64,000 nt of DNA from Parasegetibacter sp. NRK P23 (GTDB taxonomy: Bacteria; Bacteroidota; Bacteroidia; Chitinophagales; Chitinophagaceae), in assembly GCF_023721715.1 (NCBI RefSeq), contig NZ_JAMDLG010000001.1:3857655-3921654 (forward strand). Reading direction: 5' to 3'. Under the pieces are notes generated by a model. The model worked only from the letters and a program-made list of their open reading frames with translations. It made no database searches and had not been told where the DNA came from. Every line of letters begins with the position of its first letter. Position 1 is the first letter of the stretch. Position numbers and translations under genes: made by a program. This document shows positions 26,038 through 55,525 of the stretch, piece after piece.

Positions 26038-26110
26038 GGTGCGGTAGCTCAGTTGGTAGAGCAAAGGACTGAAAATCCTTGTGTCGCCGGTTCGATTCCG
26101 GCCCACACCA
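26038..26110 (+). tRNA. tRNA-Phe (GAA)
   Basis: Cloverleaf drawn by hand. D-arm GCTCAGTTGGTAGAGC. Anticodon stem-loop AAGGA-CUGAAAA-UCCUU. T-arm GCCGG-TTCGATT-CCGGC. Close to E. coli tRNA-Phe. Confidence 0.85.
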
Positions 26111-26117
26111 CGAAGAA

Positions 26118-31451: not shown

Positions 31452-32555
31452 TCATTTAGGCACGAAAATCCCCTTCAGTTGTTCCAGCAATTTTCCGTTG
31501 CCGCTCACACTAAGGCTGGTGATCTTATCCGCGATCTTCTCCACATATTCCATTTCTTTCAGTTTCCACAACATCGCGTTTTCTTCCATCAACTTTGCGG
31601 TGTTCAGCAGGCTACGTGTGCTGGCGGTTTCCTCTCTGCGCATGATGGTGTTGGCCTGCGCTTTTTTTTCGGCTACCAGCACCTGGTTCATGATCTCTTT
31701 CACGTCGCCGGGCAAAATGATGTCGCGGATACCGAAGCCGGATACTTCAACACCCAATTTTTCGGAACGTTCTTTTACTTTCTCCAGGATGAAGGGCACG
31801 ATGACGTCTTTTTTATCGAGCAACTCATCGAAACCGAATCCGGCAACATATTCCCGAAGGGCCAACTGGAAACAGATGTACAACTGACGATCGTATTCCT
31901 TGTTCTGCAACAGGGCTTTTTCAATATCCGTGACTTTGTACTGCGCCCAGGCGTTGATCCTGAGTGTTGCTTTATCGCGGGTAAGCATTTCCTGCCCGTT
32001 GATCTCCAGTTGTTGCTGGCGCGTATCTACTTTGCCCACGTAAATGGCGATGTTGTTTTTCCACCAGTAGTGCGCGCCGCTTTCCAGCATACGGACATAT
32101 TTACCATCGATGAAAAGGACGGCCCTTTCATAGTTCTCCACGCTTACGCTGCGAACATAAGGCGCCACCATCTTATTGGATAAGATTGCCCGGTCAATGG
32201 GTTCCGTAATTTCAGCTTTGCCCGTATCAGCTTTAACGAAATCATATTTTACGGGACCTTTCCAGAAAGCATACCTTCCGGAGGAAAGCACTTCGTGCAG
32301 GATGCCGTTCCTGTACAGGAGTATGATTTCGTTGTCCTTTACTTCTGTCACAATCAGCATAGACGCAAGCGTGCTGTTTTCCAGTAGAATGTTCAATTCT
32401 ATGGGGGCGTGAAAGGGTTTGGTGGTATCATACACTTCCACCTTTTCGTTGCGCCAGAACCAATATGTTCCGGCTGTAAGAATGTTTTCCAAAGCCCCTT
32501 TTCTGAACACCAGTCCAACTTCGTAGGCGTTCACTTTTACCTGTTTCATATTCAC
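31452..32555 (-). CDS. SPFH/band-7 (stomatin/prohibitin-like) domain protein
   Basis: Band-7 core (FGIRDIILPGDVKEIMNQVLVAEKKAQANTIMRREETA...). Confidence 0.7.
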   Translation of the reverse strand: MNMKQVKVNAYEVGLVFRKGALENILTAGTYWFWRNEKVEVYDTTKPFHAPIELNILLENSTLASMLIVTEVKDNEIILLYRNGILHEVLSSGRYAFWKGPVKYDFVKADTGKAEITEPIDRAILSNKMVAPYVRSVSVENYERAVLFIDGKYVRMLESGAHYWWKNNIAIYVGKVDTRQQQLEINGQEMLTRDKATLRINAWAQYKVTDIEKALLQNKEYDRQLYICFQLALREYVAGFGFDELLDKKDVIVPFILEKVKERSEKLGVEVSGFGIRDIILPGDVKEIMNQVLVAEKKAQANTIMRREETASTRSLLNTAKLMEENAMLWKLKEMEYVEKIADKITSLSVSGNGKLLEQLKGIFVPK

Positions 32556-32865
32556 GTTTTAAAGGTTGTTTTTTCAAAAACCACGATGCCCGCCACCGGC
32601 AAAGGCGGAATGGAATTCGTATACCAGCTGCTCCTGTTGTTCCCTTCGCTTATGTCGCTCCTGCTGAGGAACGACAGCCACGAAAAGAAGTGCGGGTCGA
32701 TCTGCCATCTTCCATCCATTGCTGGCTATTGCCTGGTTGCGGTTCCAAAGCCGCCCCACTCAAGGGAGCCGCTCTTTCAAGCGCCGGAATCTTCCGGCGG
32801 TCATAGGTTCCACAGGCGGGCAGCCTGGTTTTGTTTGCTTGTCATCATTTTTTGAGAAGCGATGG

Positions 32866-33000
32866 ACTTCTTTTTCAACATTTTGAGTGTTGTGTTCTAC
32901 CGCTGAACTATCACGTTTTGAGCGTGAGCAGGATTCGAACCCGCGCTGCATGAACTGTTGCTCTACCAACTGAGCTACCTGCGTTAGGAGGGAAGGAATC
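32866..33000 (-). other. cluster of degenerate, fragmented tRNA-like sequences (tRNA halves): a 5' half with CAA anticodon arm; a D-arm+T-arm chimera; a T-arm+3' acceptor fragment
   Basis: D-loop motifs AGCTCAGTTGGTAGAGC and AGTTCAGCGGTAGAAC. T-loops GGTTCGAATCC and GGTTCGATTCC. Perfect anticodon stem-loop CAACA-CUCAAAA-UGUUG. No full cloverleaf can be assembled. Confidence 0.5.
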
Positions 33001-33182
33001 GAACCTTCGACCCACAGATTAATGGTAGACAATGCCATTCCAACAACAGCATACAACTGGTTACTACCGTTGCACTGCGGGGCGTGGAAACCCTCGCCTG
33101 GGTTGTTCATTCATGATCATTGCCTTTCTTCCCGCGAGGGAAGCTTTTCTGCTGAACGGACTCAGCAATATTTTTTGTTGCA

Positions 33183-33662
33183 TTATTGCACAACTTTGTT
33201 GGCGCAGGAGCTGCTGGCGAAAGCGAAAGGCTTGGCCTGGAAAGCGAAACCCATGCCCATGATGTACCCCATGCCTTCTTTCAGCGCCTCATTGCTTTTG
33301 AATGCCGGATTCGTATTGATATCGGCGTGCACTTCAAGGTCAATATTGTACAGGGTAAAAATCCTGCACAGGTGGAAAGCCGCGTCAATACTCTTTGATA
33401 CTTCCACGAGCATCCTTTCTTTCACGCTCATTTTCCTGCGACTGGTTTCGGAGCGGATGTACATGAAGCCGCCTTTTCCTTTCCGGATAAAAACGATCAC
33501 GGTAGCGAACTCCGTTGTGTTGCCTTTCACCTGGCTATCGGTCCCGATGCATACTTTCAGTTCGTGGCCCGCGGCTTTTTCCTGAACGATCCTTTCCCTG
33601 ATCTCGTCCTCAATCGGCTGGCCGATGGGCTTTCCGTTTAATTTCCTCCATTGCTGTTCCAT
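33183..33662 (-). CDS. DUF458/YkuK-like RNase H-fold protein. The start is trimmed to MEQQW because the upstream part of the ORF overlaps tRNA genes.
   Basis: Motif VCIGTDSQ...TTEFATVIVF. The track ORF 33183..33791 overlaps tRNA-Trp and tRNA-Phe. Confidence 0.45.
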   Translation of the reverse strand: MEQQWRKLNGKPIGQPIEDEIRERIVQEKAAGHELKVCIGTDSQVKGNTTEFATVIVFIRKGKGGFMYIRSETSRRKMSVKERMLVEVSKSIDAAFHLCRIFTLYNIDLEVHADINTNPAFKSNEALKEGMGYIMGMGFAFQAKPFAFASSSCANKVVQ

Positions 33663-33682
33663 TTCATTTGGTTTTATAAAAG

Positions 33683-33754
33683 CACGGGATGAAGGATTCG
33701 AACCTTCATGCACGGGTTTGGAATCCGTGTTGTTGCCAATTACATCAACCCCGC
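33683..33754 (-). tRNA. tRNA-Trp (CCA)
   Basis: Acceptor GCGGGGU/AUCCCGU (2 G-U). Anticodon loop UUCCAAA. T-arm GAAGG-TTCGAAT-CCTTC. Discriminator G. Confidence 0.7.
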
Positions 33755-33757
33755 GAA

Positions 33758-33832
33758 TGGTGGATGAAACAGGATTCGAACCTGTAACCACGGCGTTTCA
33801 AACCGCTGCTCTACCATTGGAGCTATTCATCC
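33758..33832 (-). tRNA. tRNA-Phe (GAA), second copy, CCA encoded
   Basis: Acceptor GGAUGAA/UUCAUCC. D-arm GCTCCAATGGTAGAGC. Anticodon stem GCGGU/GCCGU with loop UUGAAAC. T-arm ACAGG-TTCGAAT-CCTGT. Confidence 0.65.
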
Positions 33833-33836
33833 GTTG

Positions 33837-33908
33837 TTGGTCCGGCAGGATTTGAACCTGCAGCCTTGAACGTATCAGGTTCCTGCGCTACCATTGCGCC
33901 ACGGACCA
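33837..33908 (-). tRNA. tRNA-Ile (GAU)
   Basis: Acceptor UGGUCCG/CGGACCA. D-stem GCGC/GCGC. Anticodon loop CUGAUAC. T-arm GCAGG-TTCAAAT-CCTGC. Confidence 0.6.
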
Positions 33909-33987
33909 TTTGCCGGCTCAGAAAGATTGGAACTTTCACTGTTGTGTTCGTAGCACAGTGTTCTTTCCGGTTAAACTATAAGCCGGG

Positions 33988-34060
33988 GGTTGTCTCCGGG
34001 CCTCGAACCCTGTTCTCTTCTTTCACAGGGAGGCGCTTTACCCGTTAAGCTAAAGACAAC
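33988..34060 (-). tRNA. tRNA of uncertain identity. Anticodon loop CUGUGAA (GUG, His-like) with discriminator C73, but a weak anticodon stem.
   Basis: Perfect 7-bp acceptor GUUGUCU/AGACAAC. D-stem GCTT/AAGC. T-loop TTCGAGG. Anticodon stem CCUCC/AGAAG has two C-A mismatches. No encoded G-1. Confidence 0.4.
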
Positions 34061-34066
34061 AAACTG

Positions 34067-34138
34067 TTGTTGAGGCTGGATTCGAACCAGCATCTTCAGC
34101 GCCAAAAGCTGACGTGCTCGCCGTTGCACTACTCAACA
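34067..34138 (-). tRNA. tRNA-Gln (UUG)
   Basis: Acceptor UGUUGAG/CUCAACA (U1-A72 as in bacterial tRNA-Gln). Anticodon stem-loop UCAGC-UUUUGGC-GCUGA. T-arm GCTGG-TTCGAAT-CCAGC. Confidence 0.8.
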
Positions 34139-34140
34139 TC

Positions 34141-34176
34141 GCATAAAAAAACCCGGTCGTTTTTGGCGACCGGGTT
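34141..34176 (-). terminator. hairpin + U7 immediately 5' of tRNA-Gln (terminator/attenuator-like)
   Basis: Perfect 9-bp stem acccggtcg/cgaccgggt, 7-nt loop, then UUUUUUU on the minus strand. It ends 3 nt before the tRNA 5' end. Confidence 0.5.
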
Positions 34177-34374
34177 CATCGTTACTGCATGAATGGGTTA
34201 TGTATTCACAAGTATATGATCCGGTTGCCGGGAAAGAATATGTTGTTCGTTGCCTGTACTGATTTTTGCGCAGAGGGGTATCGTAAACCAATAGGCGGCA
34301 TGTTGCGAACGTAAATTCTTTCGCATGGTAAATGGTATATGTTGTATTCGTTGTTGCATCTCCGTTATATTGGT

Positions 34375-41783: not shown

Positions 41784-44700
41784 ATGAACGGGTTGAACAT
41801 TGTTATAAGAGGGCATAAGCAGACGCCCGCAGTTGCGACCAATGCAGGCGATGTATTGGAGCTGGAAGCGTCTTACACGATTACCGGGGTTTCCCGAGGC
41901 GATGCCTCTGCCCATAAGATCACACTGAACAGGGAGAAATTACTTGAATTTATTTTTGAAGATGAAACTACATGGATGTGCAGCGATGCATCCATCAACG
42001 AATTATTCCCCGAACTGGATGCGCCTGGCATGGCTTCGGCGGTACGTGGCGGCGATGGCGCATTCGAAATACCCGCGGCATTAAAGGCGTCGGGAGCGGA
42101 ACGTGGATGGGTGACCAACGTGGCCATAAAGCTCATCAATGTATTCGCGAAAAAGAAGATAGGCATCACCGTTGAAAAAGCCGCCAGGAATTATGAGTTG
42201 AAGAACCTGGGCAATGTGGTGGGACTTTTTAAAGTAGATACTGGCTTTCATTTGCACGAATTCCGTGCGCCGGAGCTGGGGAAACCGGTGCTTTTGCTGA
42301 TCCATGGAACAGCGTCTTCCGTATGGGGTTGCTTTGGCGGAATGAAAAATACAGAACTCTGGAAATACCTTTGCCAAACCTATGGTAACAATATTTACGC
42401 TTTCCAGCATGAAACACTGAGCAAAAGTCCGTTAGACAATATCCGCGAACTTATCGGGCTATTGCCTTCCAACCTCCACCTGCATATCATTACACATTCA
42501 CGTGGTGGATTGCTGGGAGATGTACTCTCCAGATTCACAGATTCTGATGCGGGGAAAAATGGCTTTACAGATGAGGAACTGGCTTTGCTGGAGAAAGAGA
42601 AAAGACATGCAGACCTCCGGAACATTGAGGCGATCACGAAGTTGATGGCGGGGAAACAGTTGCGTGTGGAGCGTTTCATCCGTGTTGCCTGTCCTGCCGC
42701 CGGAACGATACTGGCTTCCAAACGACTGGATATTTATTTCAATGTGATCGCCAACCTTACCGGTTTATTAACCGGTTCACTGGCCAACCCGCTGTTCACG
42801 GCTTTCCGCGAACTGATCGCCTCGGTGATCGATACCAAAGATGACAGCGATGTATTACCGGGCATAGAAGCCATGAACCCGGAATCGCCGTTTTTGAAAG
42901 TGCTGAACAATCCATCCACGTCAGCGCCATTGAACAATCAATTGGTGGTGGTGGCCGGTAACTGTGGACTGAACTTCAGTATGAAGGCGTTGAAGATACT
43001 TGCCGTTCGCCTTTTTTTCCTGGAAGCCAACGACCTTGTGGTGAACAGCGATTCCATGTACCTGGGGGCCAAAAGAAAAATGCCAGTGCAGTATTTTTTT
43101 GATGAGGCCGATGATGTGGACCACTTCAGCTATTTCAGGAATAAAAAGACGGGCCAGGCTATGATGCGCGCCTTCCAGACCCAGCCCGATAAGCCTGTTC
43201 CGGGGTACGCGCTCTTCAACAGCCCCAGCTCGGAAGAAGCCCTCCGCAACGCGTTATTTAACCCGGAAGGTGGTGAACTTTTCCCCGATGAAATCACGGG
43301 AAAAAGACCTATCGCTGTGCTGTTACCCGGCATCATGGGCTCCAATATTGGTCCTAAGGGCGACCTGCTCTGGATCAATTACTGGAAGTTCATTAAGGGT
43401 GGGTTAAAAGACCTGAACAACCTGGAGGAATACACCGCAACTTCCGTGGTGAAAACCTCGTATAAAAAACTGAAAGATGAACTCTCCGCGAAATACGATG
43501 TGGAGACTTTTCATTTCGACTGGCGTCGTCCATTGACCGAAGTGGCCGCTATCTTCAATGAAAGAATAAAACAACTGATGGCCTTCGGCCAGCCGATCAG
43601 GTTGATTGGCCACTCTATGGGCGGTGTGGTGATCCGTGATTTTATGGTGAACCACCGCGAAACCTGGCAGCAGCTCAATAATTCCACGGGCTTCCGGCTT
43701 ATCTTCCTCGGGTCCCCACTGGGCGGCTCTTTCAGAATTCCCTACGTGTTGTTCGGGAAAGATTCCATCATCAAGAAACTCGCGATGATCGATATGCGCC
43801 ACAGCAAAAAGGAGTTGTTGCGCGTGTTTTCAGGCATGCAGGGATTGTTAAGTTTACTTCCCCTCGATAAAAACAATGCGGAAAATGATTTTGGAAACGG
43901 TGAAACCTGGCGACAGATGGCCCAGGCTGTAGGCGATTCTTCCTGGCCGCTTCCGCCTGCCAATACAATTAAAGCATTTGCAGATTACCGTGATGGCATA
44001 ACGGATCTTTCAGCGGATGACTTTAAGAATGCCGTGTACATAGCAGGGAAAGATAAGTCCACACCTTGCGGTTATCGCATCGAAAATGGGCAGCTCGTGT
44101 TCCTAAGTACCGCCGAAGGCGACCAGAGCGTAACCTGGGAAACAGGCATTCCTGCTTTAATGTCAGCCGCCAATAATGTGTATTACGTAAACGTTTCGCA
44201 TGGCGCGCTGGCCAACGAACCTTCCATGTTCAAAGGCATTGGTGAAATACTTGAAACAGGTACCACCAACCTTTTGAGTAAGAAACGGCCGGTGGTACGC
44301 GGGGAAGAAAAAGTATTCCGTACACCGGAAGTACACGACTTCGATACTTCCATGATAGGGTTGGAAAAAACACTGCTGGGATTGGGTGGAGAAACCACCG
44401 GAATTGAGCGGGGTGAAACACCGATCCGGGTATGGGTAAGTAACGGGGACCTTTCTTACGCGGCAAATCCGGTACTCGCAGGTCACTTTGAAGATGATGG
44501 CGTACTGTATGCCGAATCTTATATAGATGCGCTGCTGGATGGCGCGTTGCGAAAAAGACACCAGCTTGGATTGTACCCGGGAAAAATCGGTACCAGTGAA
44601 GTGTTCCTGCCCGATGCGGGTCGGTTTACCGGAGCGATTATAACCGGTTTAGGTAAACCCGGTACATTAACGGCGCACCAGCTCACGCTTACCGTAGAGC

Positions 44701-47243
44701 AGGGGGTCACCAATTATTTACTGGGCTTTAACAGCGGGCTGGAACGCAGGCAAAAAAAGAACGACGGGTCGGGTATTTCCTCACTTATTATCGGGTGTGG
44801 ATATGGCGGACTAAGCGTGGAGAATTCCATCCGCGCCATTTTACAGGGCGTTCAGAATGCCAATGTGAAAATGGCGAAATTGTATGGAACCCATTGCCGG
44901 ATGGTGGAAGATGTAGAATTTGTGGAGAAGGACCACAGTCGCGCGCTCGGATGTTTCTATTCACTCGCAAGAATAGAGCAGGAGCGCAACCGCTGGCTCA
45001 ACATTACTTTACCCGAGAAAAAAATAAGGCTCCTGCTGGGAAGGACCAAAAGAATACCACACGACGCCAGCGAGGAATGGTGGAACCGCATCACCGTAAG
45101 GCAGTATGGTCTGGAGACGTTGGAAAGAAAAGCCATCAGCAGCCTGCATTTCAGCGCCTCCACCGGAGGGGCAAGAGAGGAAGTGCGGGTACTGCATTGC
45201 AGCATGGGAATTATTGATGAACTGGTGAACAATATTTCCACCAGCAATGAATGGACGCCACAACGAGCCAAGACCATCTTCGAATTGCTGATACCCAACG
45301 ATTTTAAAGAACAACTCAAAAGGCAATGCCATATCTCCTGGATACTGGACAAGGAAACGGCCGCTTATCCCTGGGAGTTGCTGCAGGACACGATCCAGAA
45401 TGCAAAACCCCTGTGCATCAGCGCGGGCATGATCCGTCAACTGGCCACGGAGCAATACCGGACCATTATCAATCCAGCGGTGAAGAACAATGTGCTGATT
45501 ATTGCCGAACCGCAGCTCAACGGCGCGGCCCCCGCCCTTCCGGCAGCAAAAGAAGAGGGGCTGCAAGTGGCGGATATATTGAAGGAGAACGGGTACGAAA
45601 CAAAACTCGTGGCAGAAGCAGCGGCCCCGGAAATAATCCAGGCTTTATACGAAGACGATTACCGTATTATTCACCTGGCGGGACACGGTTTTTTCAACGA
45701 ACAGGAACCGGAAAATTCCGGGATGATGATCGGTCATAATGTCTATCTCTCCACCCGTGAAATCGCCCAGATGAGTGTGGTTCCGGAACTGGTGGTGGTG
45801 AACTGCTGCTTCCTGGGCAAAACTTCCGGAGCCGCCGAAGCGCTGTACAACAAGAGATACCGGCTGGCCGCCAACATTGGCACACAACTGATTGAAAACG
45901 GAGTGAAAGCCGTAGTGGCCGCAGGGTGGGCTGTGAACGACGCGGCAGCGCAGGAGTTTACCAATGTGTTTTACAAACACCTTTTCGATGGGTATAACTT
46001 CGGGGAAGCTGTGCTGGAAGCTCGAAAGGCTGTTTTCACGCTGTTCCCGGGAACGAACACCTGGGGGGCCTATCAATGCTATGGTGATCCGTTCTTTAAA
46101 TTGAAAGCGAATGGTCCTTCCAGGAAAGAAGCGCGTCCGTTGTCGTATGTTATTTCGGAAGAAGCGGAATACGACCTGTTCAACCTGCTGAATGAACTGG
46201 AGATGGGGAACCGGCCCGTAGCTGAATACAACCGCAAACTGGTCGCCATCATGGATGCCGTTGACCGTGCGGGCATCCGGAATGCGGAGATCACCGAAAA
46301 AGAAGCATGGGTCCTCACTGAACTGGCGAGTTTTGATGAGGCCATCGTGAAGTACGAGCAGTTGCTCCGGATGGAAAAAGCGCTTTTCACTTTCCTCAGT
46401 ATGGAAAGGTATTGCGATATCAGGGGCAGAAAACTGTTGCGCGATCTTCAGCGTAAACTCATTACGGCCGCACAGGCGGAAGAAGGCATCCTCCGCGTGA
46501 TTGCCGACCTGGGTGTGCTGATCAACGCCGGCGGTACGGCAGAGCGGTTCGGGCTACTCGCGCGCGCCTACAAAAGAAAAGCGCTGATGACCAACCAGTC
46601 CGCCGCCCGGACAAAGCTGCTGGAAAAAGCGGCCGCGCTTTGTTACCAGGCATACCAGGTGGCGGGAAAAGGGGAGAATATGTACGCGCTAACGGCATGG
46701 CTGGAAATGGAAAGCGTGCTGGTATTGGTCTACGGAAGAAAATGGGGACAGTCCTGCCGCTCGGAAAACCTGACCTACACACTCCCGCAAGCCGAGGATG
46801 TTCTAAAATTACTCGAGCAGTCCGCCACTACTGTTTACAGCGACGACGATGAATTTGATTACAACGATATGGTTTCCGCCACACACATCGAACTCTGCAG
46901 AATGCTGGTGGGCAAAGCGTCCGGCGGGGAAGAGGACTGGAGCAATATTATGCGTACGCTGCAATCTATATGGGAAAAGGCCGGCTCCCCGGGTAAAAAG
47001 ATCGCGGAAACTGAAAGATGGTGCTTCCTGGCACATGCGCTTTCAGGCCAGAGAAAAGATATTGCTTACGAATTCATCCCCGAAGGAAACGCAGGTATGG
47101 AAACGATCAGCGTGTATGTTGAAATGGTCAGGGAAGTGTTGAAGCTCCGTAAAAAGAACGGCGGCATCTCCGTGAAAAAAGCACCGGTTAAGAAGGCTGC
47201 CCCCAAGAAAAGCCCGGCGAAAAAACGGGTTACGAAAAAGTAA
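41784..47243 (+). CDS. 1819-aa multidomain protein: unknown N-domain + two tandem lipase/esterase-like alpha/beta-hydrolase modules + caspase-like region + CHAT protease domain + TPR-like helical array + Lys/Ala/Pro-rich tail
   Basis: GxSxG elbows ITHSRGG (~aa 239) and IGHSMGG (~aa 611), each preceded by an oxyanion-type LLIHGT / LLPGIMGS segment. CHAT dyad HLAGHG (~aa 1298) and VVVNCCFLG (~aa 1342). C-terminal helical repeats. Tail KKAPVKKAAPKKSPAKKRVTKK. Single uninterrupted frame. Confidence 0.85.
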   Translation: MNGLNIVIRGHKQTPAVATNAGDVLELEASYTITGVSRGDASAHKITLNREKLLEFIFEDETTWMCSDASINELFPELDAPGMASAVRGGDGAFEIPAALKASGAERGWVTNVAIKLINVFAKKKIGITVEKAARNYELKNLGNVVGLFKVDTGFHLHEFRAPELGKPVLLLIHGTASSVWGCFGGMKNTELWKYLCQTYGNNIYAFQHETLSKSPLDNIRELIGLLPSNLHLHIITHSRGGLLGDVLSRFTDSDAGKNGFTDEELALLEKEKRHADLRNIEAITKLMAGKQLRVERFIRVACPAAGTILASKRLDIYFNVIANLTGLLTGSLANPLFTAFRELIASVIDTKDDSDVLPGIEAMNPESPFLKVLNNPSTSAPLNNQLVVVAGNCGLNFSMKALKILAVRLFFLEANDLVVNSDSMYLGAKRKMPVQYFFDEADDVDHFSYFRNKKTGQAMMRAFQTQPDKPVPGYALFNSPSSEEALRNALFNPEGGELFPDEITGKRPIAVLLPGIMGSNIGPKGDLLWINYWKFIKGGLKDLNNLEEYTATSVVKTSYKKLKDELSAKYDVETFHFDWRRPLTEVAAIFNERIKQLMAFGQPIRLIGHSMGGVVIRDFMVNHRETWQQLNNSTGFRLIFLGSPLGGSFRIPYVLFGKDSIIKKLAMIDMRHSKKELLRVFSGMQGLLSLLPLDKNNAENDFGNGETWRQMAQAVGDSSWPLPPANTIKAFADYRDGITDLSADDFKNAVYIAGKDKSTPCGYRIENGQLVFLSTAEGDQSVTWETGIPALMSAANNVYYVNVSHGALANEPSMFKGIGEILETGTTNLLSKKRPVVRGEEKVFRTPEVHDFDTSMIGLEKTLLGLGGETTGIERGETPIRVWVSNGDLSYAANPVLAGHFEDDGVLYAESYIDALLDGALRKRHQLGLYPGKIGTSEVFLPDAGRFTGAIITGLGKPGTLTAHQLTLTVEQGVTNYLLGFNSGLERRQKKNDGSGISSLIIGCGYGGLSVENSIRAILQGVQNANVKMAKLYGTHCRMVEDVEFVEKDHSRALGCFYSLARIEQERNRWLNITLPEKKIRLLLGRTKRIPHDASEEWWNRITVRQYGLETLERKAISSLHFSASTGGAREEVRVLHCSMGIIDELVNNISTSNEWTPQRAKTIFELLIPNDFKEQLKRQCHISWILDKETAAYPWELLQDTIQNAKPLCISAGMIRQLATEQYRTIINPAVKNNVLIIAEPQLNGAAPALPAAKEEGLQVADILKENGYETKLVAEAAAPEIIQALYEDDYRIIHLAGHGFFNEQEPENSGMMIGHNVYLSTREIAQMSVVPELVVVNCCFLGKTSGAAEALYNKRYRLAANIGTQLIENGVKAVVAAGWAVNDAAAQEFTNVFYKHLFDGYNFGEAVLEARKAVFTLFPGTNTWGAYQCYGDPFFKLKANGPSRKEARPLSYVISEEAEYDLFNLLNELEMGNRPVAEYNRKLVAIMDAVDRAGIRNAEITEKEAWVLTELASFDEAIVKYEQLLRMEKALFTFLSMERYCDIRGRKLLRDLQRKLITAAQAEEGILRVIADLGVLINAGGTAERFGLLARAYKRKALMTNQSAARTKLLEKAAALCYQAYQVAGKGENMYALTAWLEMESVLVLVYGRKWGQSCRSENLTYTLPQAEDVLKLLEQSATTVYSDDDEFDYNDMVSATHIELCRMLVGKASGGEEDWSNIMRTLQSIWEKAGSPGKKIAETERWCFLAHALSGQRKDIAYEFIPEGNAGMETISVYVEMVREVLKLRKKNGGISVKKAPVKKAAPKKSPAKKRVTKK

Positions 47244-53913: not shown

Positions 53914-54393
53914 TTATTGGGAGTTGCGCATCCGGTCAAGAATACCGTTCAGTGTTTTTGCTTCATCGGAGGAAATATGCCCCATCAGGCTGTCCATTTC
54001 TTCCTCCATCTCATCAAATTTTTCGAGTATTTTCTTTCCTTTTGGGGTGATGGTGACATCAACAAGACGTTTGTCTTCGCGGCAGGTCGTTTTTTTGGCG
54101 AGGCCCTTGGCCACGAGCCTGTCCACAATACGACTGGTGTCGCTCATTTTATCGAGCATCCGGTTCCTGATCTGAAGGGTGGAAAGTGGTTCGGGCAGTG
54201 CACCACGGAGAATACGGAGGATGTTGAACTGTTGGGGCGTGAGGTCTTCCTTCCCGAACATGGCCTTCATCTTTTCCATCATCCAGTTGTGGGTATAAAT
54301 AATATTGATGAGCGCTTTCTGGTGCTCGTTCCTGAAAACCGACTGGTTGATGTCCTTCTCAATTCCCATAAATATGCTTCTTCTCGCGTGCAA
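53914..54393 (-). CDS. MarR-family transcriptional regulator
   Basis: wHTH (LTPQQFNILRILRGA...LSTLQIRNRMLDKMSDTSRIVDRLVAKGL). Confidence 0.7.
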   Translation of the reverse strand: MHARRSIFMGIEKDINQSVFRNEHQKALINIIYTHNWMMEKMKAMFGKEDLTPQQFNILRILRGALPEPLSTLQIRNRMLDKMSDTSRIVDRLVAKGLAKKTTCREDKRLVDVTITPKGKKILEKFDEMEEEMDSLMGHISSDEAKTLNGILDRMRNSQ

Positions 54394-54435
54394 AAATACG
54401 GTATAATCGTTATGTGTGAATGTACGGAATATGTG

Positions 54436-55467
54436 TCAGGATTCCCATACGCGTGTGCCTTCGCTGCAATTGGCGCAGATGTCGATGTTCTTTCTTCCTG
54501 TCAGCAGTTGCCTTCTGAAATCAATGTAGGCGGGGTTCTTCCATATTTCGCGGAAGCTCTGATGGCGCAGGTTCCCGAGGCGGTGCAGGGCATCTTTATC
54601 GAAGCAGCAGGGCACCACCAGGCCATCCCAGGTAATCACGTTGGCGTGCCACAGTTTCCAGCAATGGTTTTCCAGTTTGTTTTTCTGTATGGTTTCCCCG
54701 TTAGGCAAACGTTTGTAACGGCTGTATTTCTGGTTTTGGGGGATCAGTTGGTGGGGATCGTTTTCATAATCATATACCTGGGCCGTTTTGAACCAAACAT
54801 CATCCACGCCCACTTCCTTCGCGAGTTGCTTCACGTCCTCAAGCTGGTGCTCGTTGGGGCGTACCACCAGGAACTGGAACACTACAAAGGGCTTTTTGCT
54901 GTTCATTTCTTTTTTGGCCCGCACGATATTTTTTGCGCCCTGTATCACTTTTTCGAGGTTACCGCCTACCCGGTATTGTTTATACACCTCCTGCGTAGTG
55001 CCATCAATGGAGATGATAAGCCGGTCGAGTCCGCTTTCCACTGTTTTTCGGGCATTGGCTTCTGTAAGGTAATGCGCATTGGTGGAGGTGGCGGTATATA
55101 CTTTTTTGGAAGATGCATACTGCACCATTTCCAGGAAATCCGGATTCAGGTAAGGTTCTCCCTGGAAATAAAAGATCAGGTACAGCAGGTCCTTATAAAT
55201 ATCGTCGATTGTTTCACGGAAGAAATCGCGGTTCAGCATGCCCGTTGGCCGGGTGAAAGCGCGGAGTCCGCTGGGGCATTCGGGGCAGCGAAGGTTGCAG
55301 GAGGTGGTGGGTTCAAAAGAAACCGAAACGGGATAGCCCCATTGCACAGGTTTCCCGGAGAGCCTGCTGATGCGGTAGCTGCTCCATACTTTCAACATGT
55401 TCCAGGCACGGCGTGGCGTGAGTTTGGAAAGCAGGTTAACGGCATCGTGTCGGTGAAATTGTCCCAT
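54436..55467 (-). CDS. radical SAM protein with C-terminal SPASM/twitch Cys-rich domain
   Basis: CxxxCxxC (CNLRCPEC). C-terminal CCFDKD...CANC. Start trimmed (MGQF) so it does not overlap the divergent GH25 gene. Confidence 0.7.
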   Translation of the reverse strand: MGQFHRHDAVNLLSKLTPRRAWNMLKVWSSYRISRLSGKPVQWGYPVSVSFEPTTSCNLRCPECPSGLRAFTRPTGMLNRDFFRETIDDIYKDLLYLIFYFQGEPYLNPDFLEMVQYASSKKVYTATSTNAHYLTEANARKTVESGLDRLIISIDGTTQEVYKQYRVGGNLEKVIQGAKNIVRAKKEMNSKKPFVVFQFLVVRPNEHQLEDVKQLAKEVGVDDVWFKTAQVYDYENDPHQLIPQNQKYSRYKRLPNGETIQKNKLENHCWKLWHANVITWDGLVVPCCFDKDALHRLGNLRHQSFREIWKNPAYIDFRRQLLTGRKNIDICANCSEGTRVWES

Positions 55468-55525
55468 GAAGTTCAAAGGTAGGGAATAATGACGGTGGAT
55501 TATCTTTGCACCCAACCATCCGTTC

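What the first reader, a model, noticed from the sequence alone, without database searches (positions are those of the whole stretch)
32866..33000. Block of fragmented, permuted-looking tRNA halves next to an intact tRNA array
Reading the minus strand I find three pieces.
- A T-arm plus 3' acceptor fragment (GAAGGTTCGATTCCTTCC-CTCCTAA).
- A chimera with a perfect D-arm and T-arm but no anticodon arm, ending in acceptor strand TCACGCT.
- Eight nt later, a clean tRNA 5' half: acceptor AACGTGA, D-arm GTTC/GAAC, and a perfect anticodon stem-loop with CAA. It is followed by a stem-loop but no T-arm.

The 3' acceptor strand of the chimera is complementary (6 of 7) to the 5' acceptor of the downstream half. 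So a 3' half precedes a 5' half, as in permuted tRNA genes.

Alternatively these are scars of repeated integration or excision at a tRNA hotspot, which is the classic attL/attR remnant pattern.
Basis: seen in the sequence. Interest (0 to 1): 0.55.

Follow-up and report, generated by a model that had tools for sequence, protein, structure and literature searches.

The report
tRNA-mimic RNA beside SPFH repair gene
The "broken tRNA halves" are two intact, circularly permuted tRNA look-alike domains inside a conserved structured RNA of about 530 nt that always sits just upstream of an SPFH/Band-7 gene in a tRNA-array and RNA-repair island of Chitinophagaceae bacteria.

Summary

They are not debris. 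They form two tandem tRNA-like modules of the YrlA type (T-arm, closed acceptor hairpin, D-arm). The second module also carries a full anticodon-like arm.

The modules are the core of an RNA of about 530 nt (about 33107-32576, minus strand). It also has a 5' two-hairpin domain, an H-type pseudoknot with an A-rich loop, and a long 3' rod.

The same RNA occurs in more than 50 Chitinophagaceae genomes and at least 120 metagenome contigs. Covariation is strong: 95.8% of cells paired against 39-51% in slid controls, and 43 of 63 pairs show compensatory changes.

It co-occurs strictly with the SPFH/Band-7 gene directly downstream: both present in 42 loci, both absent in 21, SPFH alone in 0.

The usual island is tRNA array, YkuK, (AAA ATPase), RNA, SPFH, (RlaP), RtcB.

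Best reading: this is the Chitinophagaceae form of the Band-7-associated tRNA-like ncRNA that Burroughs and Aravind predicted in 2016. It is a tRNA mimic that works with SPFH in tRNA repair or protection.

It is not in Rfam 15, not a permuted tRNA gene, not integration scars, and not a true Ro-bound YrlA.

The parts
32576..33107 (-). Whole conserved structured RNA, about 530 nt, filling the ykuK-SPFH intergenic region
   Evidence: nhmmer profiles built from A1 and A2 hit one copy in the window, at 33107-32797 and 32853-32557. The MFE fold has z=-3.0.
33077..33097 (-). P1 hairpin of the 5' domain (GCGAGGG...CCCCGC)
   Evidence: A1 helix 1: 9 pairs, 6 with compensatory change, 94% of cells paired. 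Coordinates.
33051..33075 (-). P2 hairpin with a nearly invariant loop GUAGUAAC, followed by conserved GUAUGCUGUUG
   Evidence: A1 helix 2: 99% paired, 3 pairs covary. This motif was used to find at least 120 metagenome copies.
33018..33050 (-). Junction between P2 and module 1. In the window it forms the local hairpin AAUGG..CCAUU. It is poorly conserved in structure.
   Evidence: No consensus helix was found here.
32955..33017 (-). tRNA-like module 1, opened at the anticodon stem. Closing stem CUGU (33014-33017) / ACAG (32955-32958); V-loop GGGUC 33009-33013; T-arm 32992-33008; closed acceptor-like hairpin 32978-32991; U8-A9 plus D-arm 32960-32977.
   Evidence: Rfam YrlA partial match at 32956-33016, 35.2 bits, E=3e-5. 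Helices 3-6 of A1 are 87-100% paired and 14 of 18 pairs covary. The tRNA elbow nucleotides are invariant.
32945..32954 (-). Linker between the two modules
   Evidence: Variable in sequence and length.
32876..32944 (-). tRNA-like module 2, opened at the variable loop. T-arm 32928-32944; closed acceptor hairpin UCACG-CUCAAAA-CGUGA 32911-32927; U8-A9 plus D-arm 32894-32910; anticodon-like arm CAACA-CUCAAAA-UGUUG 32876-32893.
   Evidence: Rfam YrlA partial match, 26.4 bits, and tRNA partial match, 32.1 bits. Helices 7-11 of A1 are 94-99% paired and 16 of 18 pairs covary. The loop keeps C32, U33, R37 and A38 while the triplet varies.
32842..32871 (-). H-type pseudoknot. Stem 1 is GAAG/CUUC. Loop nucleotides CAUC pair with GAUG after the A-rich linker CAAAAAAU.
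   Evidence: Stem 2 is present (4-7 bp) in all 46 RNAs in which stem 1 was found, with at least 7 covarying sequence types. These are helices 12-13 of A1.
32576..32832 (-). 3' rod domain. Outer helix 32815-32832 pairs with 32576-32594. Inner helix 32716-32737 pairs with 32595-32613. It ends in GGUUUUUG, 26 nt before the SPFH start codon.
   Evidence: A2: 90.2% paired against 36-49% when slid, and 26 of 32 pairs have compensatory change. A terminator-like site lies at 32598-32584 plus a U-run.
31452..32549 (-). SPFH/Band-7 (slipin-like) gene directly downstream of the RNA
   Evidence: Pfam Band_7, 1.4e-33. Strict co-occurrence with the RNA: 42 both, 21 neither, 0 SPFH alone.
33183..33662 (-). 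ykuK (DUF458, RNase H-like) gene directly upstream of the RNA
   Evidence: Pfam PF04308, 4.3e-35. 100% identical to the Parasegetibacter sp. NRK P23 protein.
33682..34138 (-). Array of six tRNA genes (Gln, His, Arg, Ile, Phe, Trp) heading the island. It is preceded by a terminator at 34149-34177.
   Evidence: ARAGORN, Rfam, terminator scan. Related loci carry arrays of up to 15 tRNAs in the same position.

Best explanation
The region is the tRNA-like core of one conserved, highly structured RNA of about 530 nt. It is encoded between ykuK and an SPFH/Band-7 gene in a tRNA-array and RNA-repair island of a Parasegetibacter-like Chitinophagaceae chromosome.

The RNA has five parts:
- a 5' domain of two hairpins;
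- a tRNA mimic opened at the anticodon stem and closed at the acceptor end (the YrlA design);
- a second tRNA mimic opened at the variable loop, which keeps a complete anticodon-like arm;
- an H-type pseudoknot with an A-rich loop;
- a long 3' rod that ends in a U-run just before the SPFH start codon.

Shown here: the structure, its conservation, its strict coupling to the SPFH gene, and the usual presence of RtcB ligase and sometimes the RlaP nucleotidyltransferase downstream.

Inferred: it is the lineage-specific form of the Band-7-associated tRNA-like ncRNA proposed by Burroughs and Aravind (2016). It is probably made as part of the tRNA-array/ykuK/SPFH transcript. It would present two tRNA-shaped surfaces (elbow, acceptor/T minihelix, anticodon loop) to the SPFH protein and to tRNA-handling enzymes. 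In that role it could be a scaffold or cofactor for repairing cleaved tRNAs, and/or a decoy for tRNA-targeting nucleases. This is analogous to what is proposed for YrlA with Ro60.
For: Identity and structure:
- Partial YrlA and tRNA covariance-model matches.
- 32-sequence alignment with the tRNA elbow nucleotides invariant.
- RNAalifold gives 61 pairs, 42 with compensatory changes.
- The named structure is 95.8% paired against 39-51% when slid, with 43 against 12-19 compensatory pairs, and 0 of 500 shuffles reach it.
- Pseudoknot stem 2 covaries in all 46 RNAs where stem 1 was found.
- The 3' rod is 90.2% paired against 36-49% when slid.
- The anticodon-loop signature is kept while 28 different triplets occur.

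Distribution:
- A full-length nhmmer match (60 bits or more, downstream of ykuK) in 52 of 80 Chitinophagaceae genome loci.
- At least 120 metagenome contigs and none in viral contigs.
- 112 RNAs have two T-loops and 14 have one.

Context:
- RNA and SPFH are both present in 42 loci, both absent in 21, and SPFH is never alone.
- An RtcB homologue was found in 44 of the 80 loci, most often downstream of SPFH. RlaP, an AAA ATPase and tRNA arrays also occur.

Same logic in other phyla:
- Burkholderia has RtcR, a tRNA-like element with a 6-nt anticodon loop, Band-7, RtcB and RlaP.
- Citrobacter and E. coli slipin leaders, and the Subdoligranulum leader, have a T-arm followed directly by a closed hairpin.

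Literature:
- Wang et al. 2018 (bioRxiv 10.1101/312249) report the b7a-tRNA prediction and that YrlA-like RNAs sometimes lie next to Band-7.
- tRNA L-arrays are co-regulated with rtcB under translational stress (PMC8421152).
Against: - There are no expression, end-mapping or binding data, so the function and the ends of the RNA are inferred.
- The 64-kb window itself has no RtcB, RlaP or AAA ATPase. A repair role here would need enzymes encoded elsewhere.
Equating this RNA with their Band-7-associated RNA rests on a second-hand description and on my own comparison loci.
- The fixed position right before the SPFH start codon fits a cis-acting leader equally well.
Confidence: 0.72

Rival explanations
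1. It is a cis-acting leader or sensor of the SPFH(-RlaP-RtcB) operon. The tRNA-shaped domains are bound, modified or cut by tRNA-directed factors such as RNase P or anticodon nucleases. That event changes the 3' rod and terminator-like end and so controls downstream expression. This overlaps with the best explanation rather than excluding it.
For: - The RNA is always on the same strand and directly upstream of SPFH. The 3' helix ends 20-40 nt before the start codon and is followed by a U-run.
- In L071, where SPFH is missing, the RNA directly precedes RtcB.
- In Enterobacteria the equivalent element lies between a sigma-54-like promoter next to rtcR and the slipin gene.
- The anticodon-loop shape is conserved without anticodon identity.
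Against: - No alternative, mutually exclusive pairing was demonstrated. The rod helices are simply conserved.
- About 530 nt with two complete tRNA mimics is far more than known leaders need.
- Y RNAs in the Salmonella rsr-yrlBA-rtcBA operon are likewise encoded within an operon yet act as ncRNAs.
Confidence: 0.2
2. It is a true YrlA-type Y RNA that binds a Ro60 (Rsr) protein encoded elsewhere in the genome.
For: The best Rfam matches are to YrlA, and the T-arm, closed acceptor hairpin and D-arm topology is identical.
Against: - Only YrlA model positions 23-85 of 114 match. The Ro-binding stem does not match, and the score is 35.2 bits against a gathering score of 69.
- No TROVE-domain ORF is in the window.
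- The RNA tracks SPFH, not Rsr.
- The only GNCGAAG string in the window (GUCGAAG) is the V-loop/T-stem junction, and it is not conserved.
Confidence: 0.04
3. It is a circularly permuted tRNA gene. Its transcript would be circularised and re-cut into a working tRNA.
For: In both modules the 3' half comes before the 5' half.
Against: - The acceptor is a closed stem with a short loop, 5 bp in the window, and has no discriminator or CCA.
- The anticodon triplet is not conserved.
- Module 1 has no anticodon loop at all.
- The modules are embedded in a larger conserved fold.
- Bacteria lack the bulge-helix-bulge splicing endonuclease used by known permuted tRNAs (established knowledge).
- ARAGORN's permuted/tmRNA modes give nothing here at default settings.
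Confidence: 0.02
4. It is decaying tRNA pseudogenes or attL/attR scars left by repeated integration at a tRNA hotspot.
For: The region lies next to a tRNA array, and individual arms look like pieces of tRNAs.
Against: - All stems are kept by compensatory substitutions across dozens of species.
- Position and order are fixed relative to ykuK and SPFH.
- The module T-arm and D-arm sequences do not occur as exact strings in any of the six array tRNAs. Only the module-1 D-arm string recurs, in the separate tRNA-Phe at 26038.
- No integrase gene or direct repeats were seen.
Confidence: 0.02

Closest known systems
Band-7-associated tRNA-like ncRNA (b7a-tRNA) of SPFH/Band-7-RtcB RNA-repair systems. 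Source: Burroughs and Aravind 2016, NAR 44:8525, as described in Wang et al. 2018, bioRxiv 10.1101/312249.
   Same: - It lies directly upstream of an SPFH/Band-7 gene homologous to those of proteobacterial RtcR-Band-7-RtcB-RlaP operons (36-41% identity).
- It is usually followed by RtcB and sometimes RlaP.
- It has tRNA-like T and D arms and an anticodon-like loop that does not decode.
- Wang et al. state that YrlA-like RNAs are occasionally found next to Band-7.
   Different: - The Burkholderia example examined here (L204:4223-4295) is an unpermuted cloverleaf with a 7-bp acceptor stem and a 6-nt anticodon loop.
- The Chitinophagaceae RNA has two permuted modules with closed acceptor ends.
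- Those modules sit inside an RNA of about 530 nt with a 5' domain, a pseudoknot and a 3' rod.
- There is no rtcR or sigma-54 context. Instead there is a tRNA array, ykuK and an AAA ATPase.
YrlA, the bacterial Y RNA-like family (Rfam RF02553; Chen et al. 2014, PMC4201824)
   Same: - The same permuted tRNA-like module: V region, T-arm, closed acceptor-like stem, D-arm, closed by a stem at the anticodon-stem position.
- The conserved elbow nucleotides are the same.
- It is encoded in an RNA-repair (RtcB) neighbourhood.
   Different: - There is no Ro60-binding stem and no conserved GNCGAAN0-1G motif.
- No rsr gene is nearby.
- The score is half the gathering threshold.
- There are two modules, one with a full anticodon arm.
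- It is about five times longer.
Permuted tRNA genes (Cyanidioschyzon merolae type) and two-piece permuted tmRNA
   Same: The 3' acceptor/T-arm half is encoded upstream of the 5' acceptor/D-arm half.
   Different: - The acceptor ends are covalently closed by a short loop and are not processed termini.
- There is no BHB motif, CCA, tag reading frame or conserved anticodon.
H-type pseudoknots with an A-rich third loop (the preQ1-I riboswitch topology)
   Same: The element at 32842-32871 has the order stem 1, short loop, stem 2, stem 1, an A-rich linker of 7-8 nt, stem 2.
   Different: - There is no Rfam PreQ1 match at E up to 10.
- Stem 1 (GAAG/CUUC) is invariant while stem 2 varies freely.
- It lies inside a larger RNA and is not next to a ribosome-binding site.

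Membership tests
YrlA (RF02553) | tRNA-like module in the order T-arm, closed acceptor-like stem, D-arm | tested here: met
   cmscan aligns YrlA model positions 23-85 at 32956-33016 and positions 30-81 at 32894-32945. The helices covary.
YrlA (RF02553) | Ro60-binding stem formed by the 5' and 3' ends, with the GNCGAAN0-1G motif (Chen 2014) | tested here: not met
   YrlA model positions 1-22 and 86-114 are not matched. No conserved GNCGAA motif appears in the 32-sequence alignment.
YrlA (RF02553) | Encoded within about 4 kb of an rsr (TROVE) gene | tested here: not met
   No TROVE domain was found in any window ORF of 340 aa or more, nor in the neighbouring ORFs. The related loci were not scanned exhaustively.
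YrlA (RF02553) | Reaches the Rfam gathering score of 69 bits | tested here: not met
   The two matches score 35.2 and 26.4 bits.
Band-7-associated tRNA-like RNA (b7a-tRNA) | Encoded directly next to an SPFH/Band-7 gene | tested here: met
   RNA and SPFH are both present in 42 loci, both absent in 21, and SPFH is never alone. The RNA starts roughly 400-860 nt (typically about 550) before SPFH on the same strand.
Band-7-associated tRNA-like RNA (b7a-tRNA) | Neighbourhood contains the RtcB ligase (and often RlaP) | tested here: inconclusive
   RtcB lies downstream of SPFH in about 30 of the loci that carry the RNA, and RlaP in 4 of them (6 of the 80 loci overall). No RtcB or RlaP is present in the 64-kb window itself.
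Band-7-associated tRNA-like RNA (b7a-tRNA) | 'Strongly resembles an authentic tRNA', that is, an unpermuted cloverleaf | tested here: not met
   ARAGORN finds no tRNA and the modules are permuted. The Burkholderia comparison element is unpermuted.
Band-7-associated tRNA-like RNA (b7a-tRNA) | Identity with the element catalogued by Burroughs and Aravind | not testable with these tools
   The paper and its supplements are not held in the library.
Canonical tRNA (RF00005) | Cloverleaf with a 7-bp acceptor stem formed by the 5' and 3' ends and a decoding anticodon | tested here: not met
   There are only partial model matches (positions 5-66 and 6-65). The 32.1-bit match uses pseudoknot stem 1 as a false T-arm. 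ARAGORN finds none. The triplet is not conserved.
Permuted tRNA gene | 3' half upstream of 5' half | tested here: met
   This holds for both modules.
Permuted tRNA gene | Processable acceptor termini (7-bp stem, discriminator, CCA addition site) and a circularisation motif | tested here: not met
   The acceptor is a closed stem with a short loop, 5 bp in the window. No leader/trailer BHB-like pairing was seen.

The most novel reading that the evidence does not exclude
This large RNA, about 530 nt, may be a tRNA-shaped tripwire or scaffold specific to SPFH proteins.

Its two tRNA mimics, one with a generic anticodon loop, would be recognised or cut by tRNA-targeting toxins, or loaded into an SPFH cage. 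That event would then switch on or organise the tRNA-array/RlaP/RtcB response.

If so, it would be an RNA partner class for SPFH/stomatin-family proteins and a cis-encoded damage sensor that takes the place of RtcR in Bacteroidota.
Probability: 0.2. Interest if true: 0.8.

Novelty: new variant of a known kind. Interest (0 to 1): 0.55.

Why it matters
SPFH/Band-7 proteins are known as membrane scaffolds. An RNA partner for them has so far only been a 2016 bioinformatic prediction. It had not been validated experimentally when Wang et al. wrote in 2018, and no matching family exists in Rfam 15.

This locus gives a well-defined, covariation-supported example with unusual architecture: two differently permuted tRNA mimics, a pseudoknot and a rod. 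It occurs in culturable soil bacteria such as Niastella, Lacibacter, Flavihumibacter and Parasegetibacter.

That makes several questions directly testable:
- whether SPFH proteins bind tRNA-like RNA;
- how RtcB repair systems recognise tRNA damage when RtcR is absent;
- what the accessory tRNA arrays are for.

There is also an annotation point. The Rfam tRNA model passes its gathering threshold on part of this RNA, so the element can be mis-annotated as a tRNA or tRNA pseudogene.

Tried and rejected
- ARAGORN with relaxed thresholds, intron mode and mitochondrial mode. Only at very low thresholds do spurious calls appear, including on the wrong strand, so this was rejected as evidence for a tRNA.
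- tmRNA and permuted tmRNA. There is nothing at default settings. The low-threshold 'tmRNAp' calls overlap the real tRNA array.
- Rfam gathering scan of 15 related loci and E-value scan of the window. No family other than tRNA and partial YrlA was found, so GOLLD, ROOL, PreQ1 and others are excluded.
- Viral contigs scanned with the 5' motif gave 0 matches. The element is not evidently phage-borne.
- PADLOC gave no defence-system model for YkuK, SPFH, RtcB or RlaP. Only DUF5131 matches candidate systems.
- PDB sequence search with YkuK found no solved relative.
- Attempts to read Burroughs and Aravind 2016 and Sim et al. 2020 failed because neither is held.
- A consensus helix for the junction at 33018-33050 was sought and not found.
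- The ORF at 32760-33110 (116 aa) overlaps the RNA. It has no Pfam match, and the substitution pattern is that of RNA helices, so it was rejected as a gene.

Full report
**Observation.**
- a T-arm, GAAGGUUCGAUUCCUUC;
- a perfect D-arm, UAGCUCAGUUGGUAGAGC;
- a second T-arm, GCGGGUUCGAAUCCUGC;
- the complementary strands UCACG and CGUGA;
- a second D-arm;
- a 5-bp hairpin with the 7-nt loop CUCAAAA;
- a further hairpin.

ARAGORN finds six tRNAs just upstream (34138-33682) and one tRNA-Phe at 26038, but nothing in 32840-33110. This holds with lowered thresholds and intron mode.

An Rfam E-value scan gave the key lead. The best non-tRNA matches are two partial hits to YrlA (RF02553), the bacterial Y RNA-like family. 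One is at 32956-33016 (35.2 bits, E=3e-5) and the other at 32894-32945 (26.4 bits). In both, the aligned columns are T-arm, closed acceptor-like stem, D-arm.

**Organism and neighbours.** The gene upstream (33183-33662, minus strand) encodes a YkuK/DUF458 RNase H-like protein. It is 100% identical to a protein of Parasegetibacter sp. NRK P23, family Chitinophagaceae. The gene downstream (31452-32549, minus strand) encodes an SPFH/Band-7 protein. The remaining ORFs examined in the window match ordinary, non-phage protein families, with no Ro60/TROVE protein, RtcB or RlaP.

**Comparative data.** A genome scan with YkuK returned 80 Chitinophagaceae loci.
- In about 30 of them, two T-loops 57-69 nt apart lie 110-300 nt after the ykuK stop codon.
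- In about 20 more, the same element lies 1.0-1.9 kb (once 2.6 kb) further downstream, after an AAA ATPase gene.
- Reading the sequences showed that conservation extends well beyond the tRNA-like part.

**Structure of the 5' part and the modules.** A 32-sequence alignment (A1) has the tRNA elbow nucleotides invariant: GGUUC.A..CC in both T-loops, and U8, A14, G18 and G19 in the D-arms.

RNAalifold predicts 61 pairs, 42 with compensatory changes. Counting a named structure of 63 pairs in 13 helices gives the following:

| Measure | Structure | Slid by 1-3 columns |
|---|---|---|
| Cells paired | 95.8% | 39-51% |
| Pairs with changes on both sides | 43 | 12-19 |
| Covariation score | 0.479 | 0.08-0.12 |

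None of 500 shuffles reaches the observed values.

The helices are, in order:
- P1, then P2 with a conserved GUAGUAAC loop.
- Module 1: closing stem CUGU/ACAG at the anticodon-stem position, a 5-nt V-loop GGGUC, T-arm, closed acceptor hairpin, U8-A9, D-arm, A26.
- Module 2: T-arm, closed acceptor hairpin, U8-A9, D-arm and a complete anticodon-like arm.
- A hairpin, GAAG-N7-CUUC.

**Pseudoknot.** The loop of that last hairpin pairs with a sequence that follows an A-rich linker. This second stem, 4-7 bp long, is present in all 46 RNAs in which the GAAG...CUUC hairpin was found. It occurs in at least seven covarying sequence types: CAUC/GAUG, CACC/GGUG, CAGC/GCUG, CGCC/GGCG, CGUC/GACG, UGCC/GGCA and UCGCC/GGCGA.

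**The anticodon-like loop.** Across 130 distinct RNAs the module-2 loop keeps the anticodon-loop signature: C32 in 90, U33 in 109, a purine at 37 in 124 and A38 in 110, each of 128. The central triplet takes 28 different values. The shape of the loop is under selection; a codon specificity is not.

**Structure of the 3' part.** The 175-380 nt between the pseudoknot and the SPFH start codon are also conserved. Two nested long-range helices form a rod.
- The outer helix has consensus AAAGCCAGGUUUAUUUACC / GGUAAAUAAAACUGGCUUU. In the window it is 32815-32832 with 32576-32594.
- The inner helix is 32716-32737 with 32595-32613.
- Together they are 90.2% paired against 36-49% when slid, and 26 of 32 pairs have compensatory change.
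- The rod ends in a U-run 20-40 nt before the start codon, and the simple scan flags a terminator-like site there.

The window sequence alone folds into the same hairpins and rod with z=-3.0. The window holds a single copy.

**Distribution.**
- Of 126 RNAs with a recognisable pseudoknot, 112 have two T-loops and 14 have one.
- No Rfam 15 family other than tRNA reaches threshold in 15 related loci, so the RNA is not catalogued there.

**Genomic coupling.** I combined an nhmmer profile of A1 with local tblastn of the neighbouring proteins. Among 64 genome loci with at least 3 kb downstream of ykuK:

| RNA | SPFH | Loci |
|---|---|---|
| present | present | 42 |
| absent | absent | 21 |
| present | absent | 1 (L071, where the RNA directly precedes RtcB) |
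| absent | present | 0 |

The typical order is tRNA array (up to 15 genes), (AAA ATPase), ykuK, (AAA ATPase), RNA, SPFH, (RlaP), RtcB. RtcB was confirmed by Pfam at 276.8 bits and RlaP likewise.

**Link to known systems.** Wang et al. 2018 (bioRxiv 10.1101/312249) summarise Burroughs and Aravind 2016. [quoted passage not shown] Occasionally YrlA lies next to the Band-7 protein. At the time they wrote, the RNA had not been validated experimentally. From my own memory of the 2016 abstract, SPFH/Band-7 modules and 'a novel tRNA-like molecule' are proposed there as scaffolding cofactors analogous to Ro and Y RNA. I could not read that paper.

To have real comparison material I searched the window's SPFH protein against plasmid-labelled records. 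Full-length homologues (36-41% identity) turned up in three settings.
- **Burkholderia stagnalis.** The locus runs divergent RtcR, an acceptor/T-arm minihelix-like element, an unpermuted tRNA-like gene (Rfam tRNA 42.4 bits; ARAGORN 'tRNA-???' with a 6-nt anticodon loop), Band-7, RtcB, RlaP. I take this to be the canonical b7a-tRNA arrangement.
- **Citrobacter and E. coli.** The slipin gene follows rtcR (in Citrobacter) and a sigma-54-like promoter. Its leader of about 300 nt contains a T-arm (UGGGUUCGAUUCCCA) followed immediately by a closed 6-bp hairpin, which covaries between the two species. The leader and gene are present in 1628 of 5426 complete E. coli genomes, and no RNA is annotated there.
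- **Subdoligranulum (a Firmicute).** The leader again has two T-arms, the second followed by a closed 7-bp hairpin.

So a tRNA-like RNA directly upstream of this SPFH subfamily recurs across phyla. The Chitinophagaceae version is a permuted, two-module, much larger variant.

**Mechanism.**
- *Shown:* the structure, the conservation of tRNA identity elements for shape (elbow, acceptor/T coaxial stack, anticodon loop), and the strict coupling to SPFH and frequent coupling to RtcB, RlaP and tRNA arrays.
- *Inferred:* the RNA is transcribed with the island and offers tRNA-shaped surfaces to the SPFH protein and to tRNA-handling enzymes. It would act as scaffold, cofactor or decoy in the response to tRNA cleavage. 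This parallels proposals for YrlA and the 'sponge' idea for tRNA L-arrays, which are co-regulated with rtcB under translational stress (PMC8421152).
- *Main rival:* a cis-regulatory role for SPFH expression. The data fit this equally well, and it is not mutually exclusive with the ncRNA role.

**Rejected readings.**
- Permuted tRNA gene: the acceptor is closed, there is no CCA, and the triplet is variable.
- Integration scars or pseudogenes: covariation and fixed synteny argue against it.
- A true Ro-bound YrlA: there is no Ro-binding stem and no rsr gene, and the score is half the gathering threshold.

**Verdict.** It is a new variant of a predicted but uncharacterised kind of RNA.

Noticed in passing
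window 33682-34138 (-), compared with 26038-26111 (+): The six-tRNA array (Gln, His, Arg, Ile, Phe, Trp) is a second, divergent tRNA set. The array tRNA-Phe differs at many positions from the tRNA-Phe at 26038, and several array tRNAs score low (His 30.9 bits, Trp 42.7 bits). Related loci carry arrays of up to 15 tRNAs in the same position, resembling the 'L-arrays' linked to rtcB and translational stress.
   Followed up: partly
window 32853-32913 (-): The Rfam tRNA model passes its gathering score here (32.1 against 29 bits). It does so by using the D-arm and anticodon-like arm of module 2, with pseudoknot stem 1 standing in as a false T-arm. Annotation pipelines could call this a tRNA or tRNA pseudogene.
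   Followed up: yes
window 32842-32871 (-): An H-type pseudoknot with an invariant stem 1 (GAAG/CUUC), a freely covarying stem 2 and an A-rich third loop. It has the same topology as the preQ1-I aptamer but gives no Rfam match. Its role is unknown; it could protect the 3' end or bind a ligand or protein.
   Followed up: partly
L010:4565-5731 and 54 other loci: An AAA ATPase gene of about 388 aa (weak hits to STAND/AAA models) sits on one side or the other of ykuK in 55 of 80 loci. It is absent from the window.
   Followed up: partly
L201:4700-4990 and L202:4690-4995 (Citrobacter and E. coli slipin leaders): An unannotated conserved leader lies upstream of the slipin-RlaP operon. It has a T-arm followed directly by a closed hairpin that covaries between the two species. 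It is present in 1628 of 5426 complete E. coli genomes.
   Followed up: partly
L204:4150-4295 (Burkholderia stagnalis): An unpermuted tRNA-like gene with a 6-nt anticodon loop (UGAAAA) lies between rtcR and Band-7-RtcB-RlaP. It is preceded by a second T-arm whose flanks (GGGCGC...GCGCCC-ACC) could form an acceptor/T minihelix.
   Followed up: partly
L203:4640-4740 (Subdoligranulum variabile): The leader of a Firmicute SPFH homologue (41% identity) also has two T-arms. The second is followed by a closed 7-bp hairpin, so the permuted design is not confined to Bacteroidota.
   Followed up: no
L030, L032, L067, L070 and 10 metagenome loci: One-module variants of the RNA exist: 14 of 126 copies have a single T-loop before the pseudoknot.
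   Followed up: partly
L064:6272-6939: In this locus a second cluster of tRNA genes lies downstream of the SPFH gene.
   Followed up: no
window 41784-47243 (+): A very large ORF (1819 aa) combines DUF7379, a lipase/alpha-beta-hydrolase region, a CHAT protease domain and a TPR-S sensor domain. This architecture is typical of conflict or defence systems.
   Followed up: no
L010:1201-1926 and 4 other loci: A DUF5131 protein upstream of the tRNA array matches the PADLOC candidate defence components PDC-M41B and PDC-M30B (E about 1e-127).
   Followed up: no
window 53917-55482 (+): A 521-aa ORF with no Pfam match at E up to 0.001.
   Followed up: no
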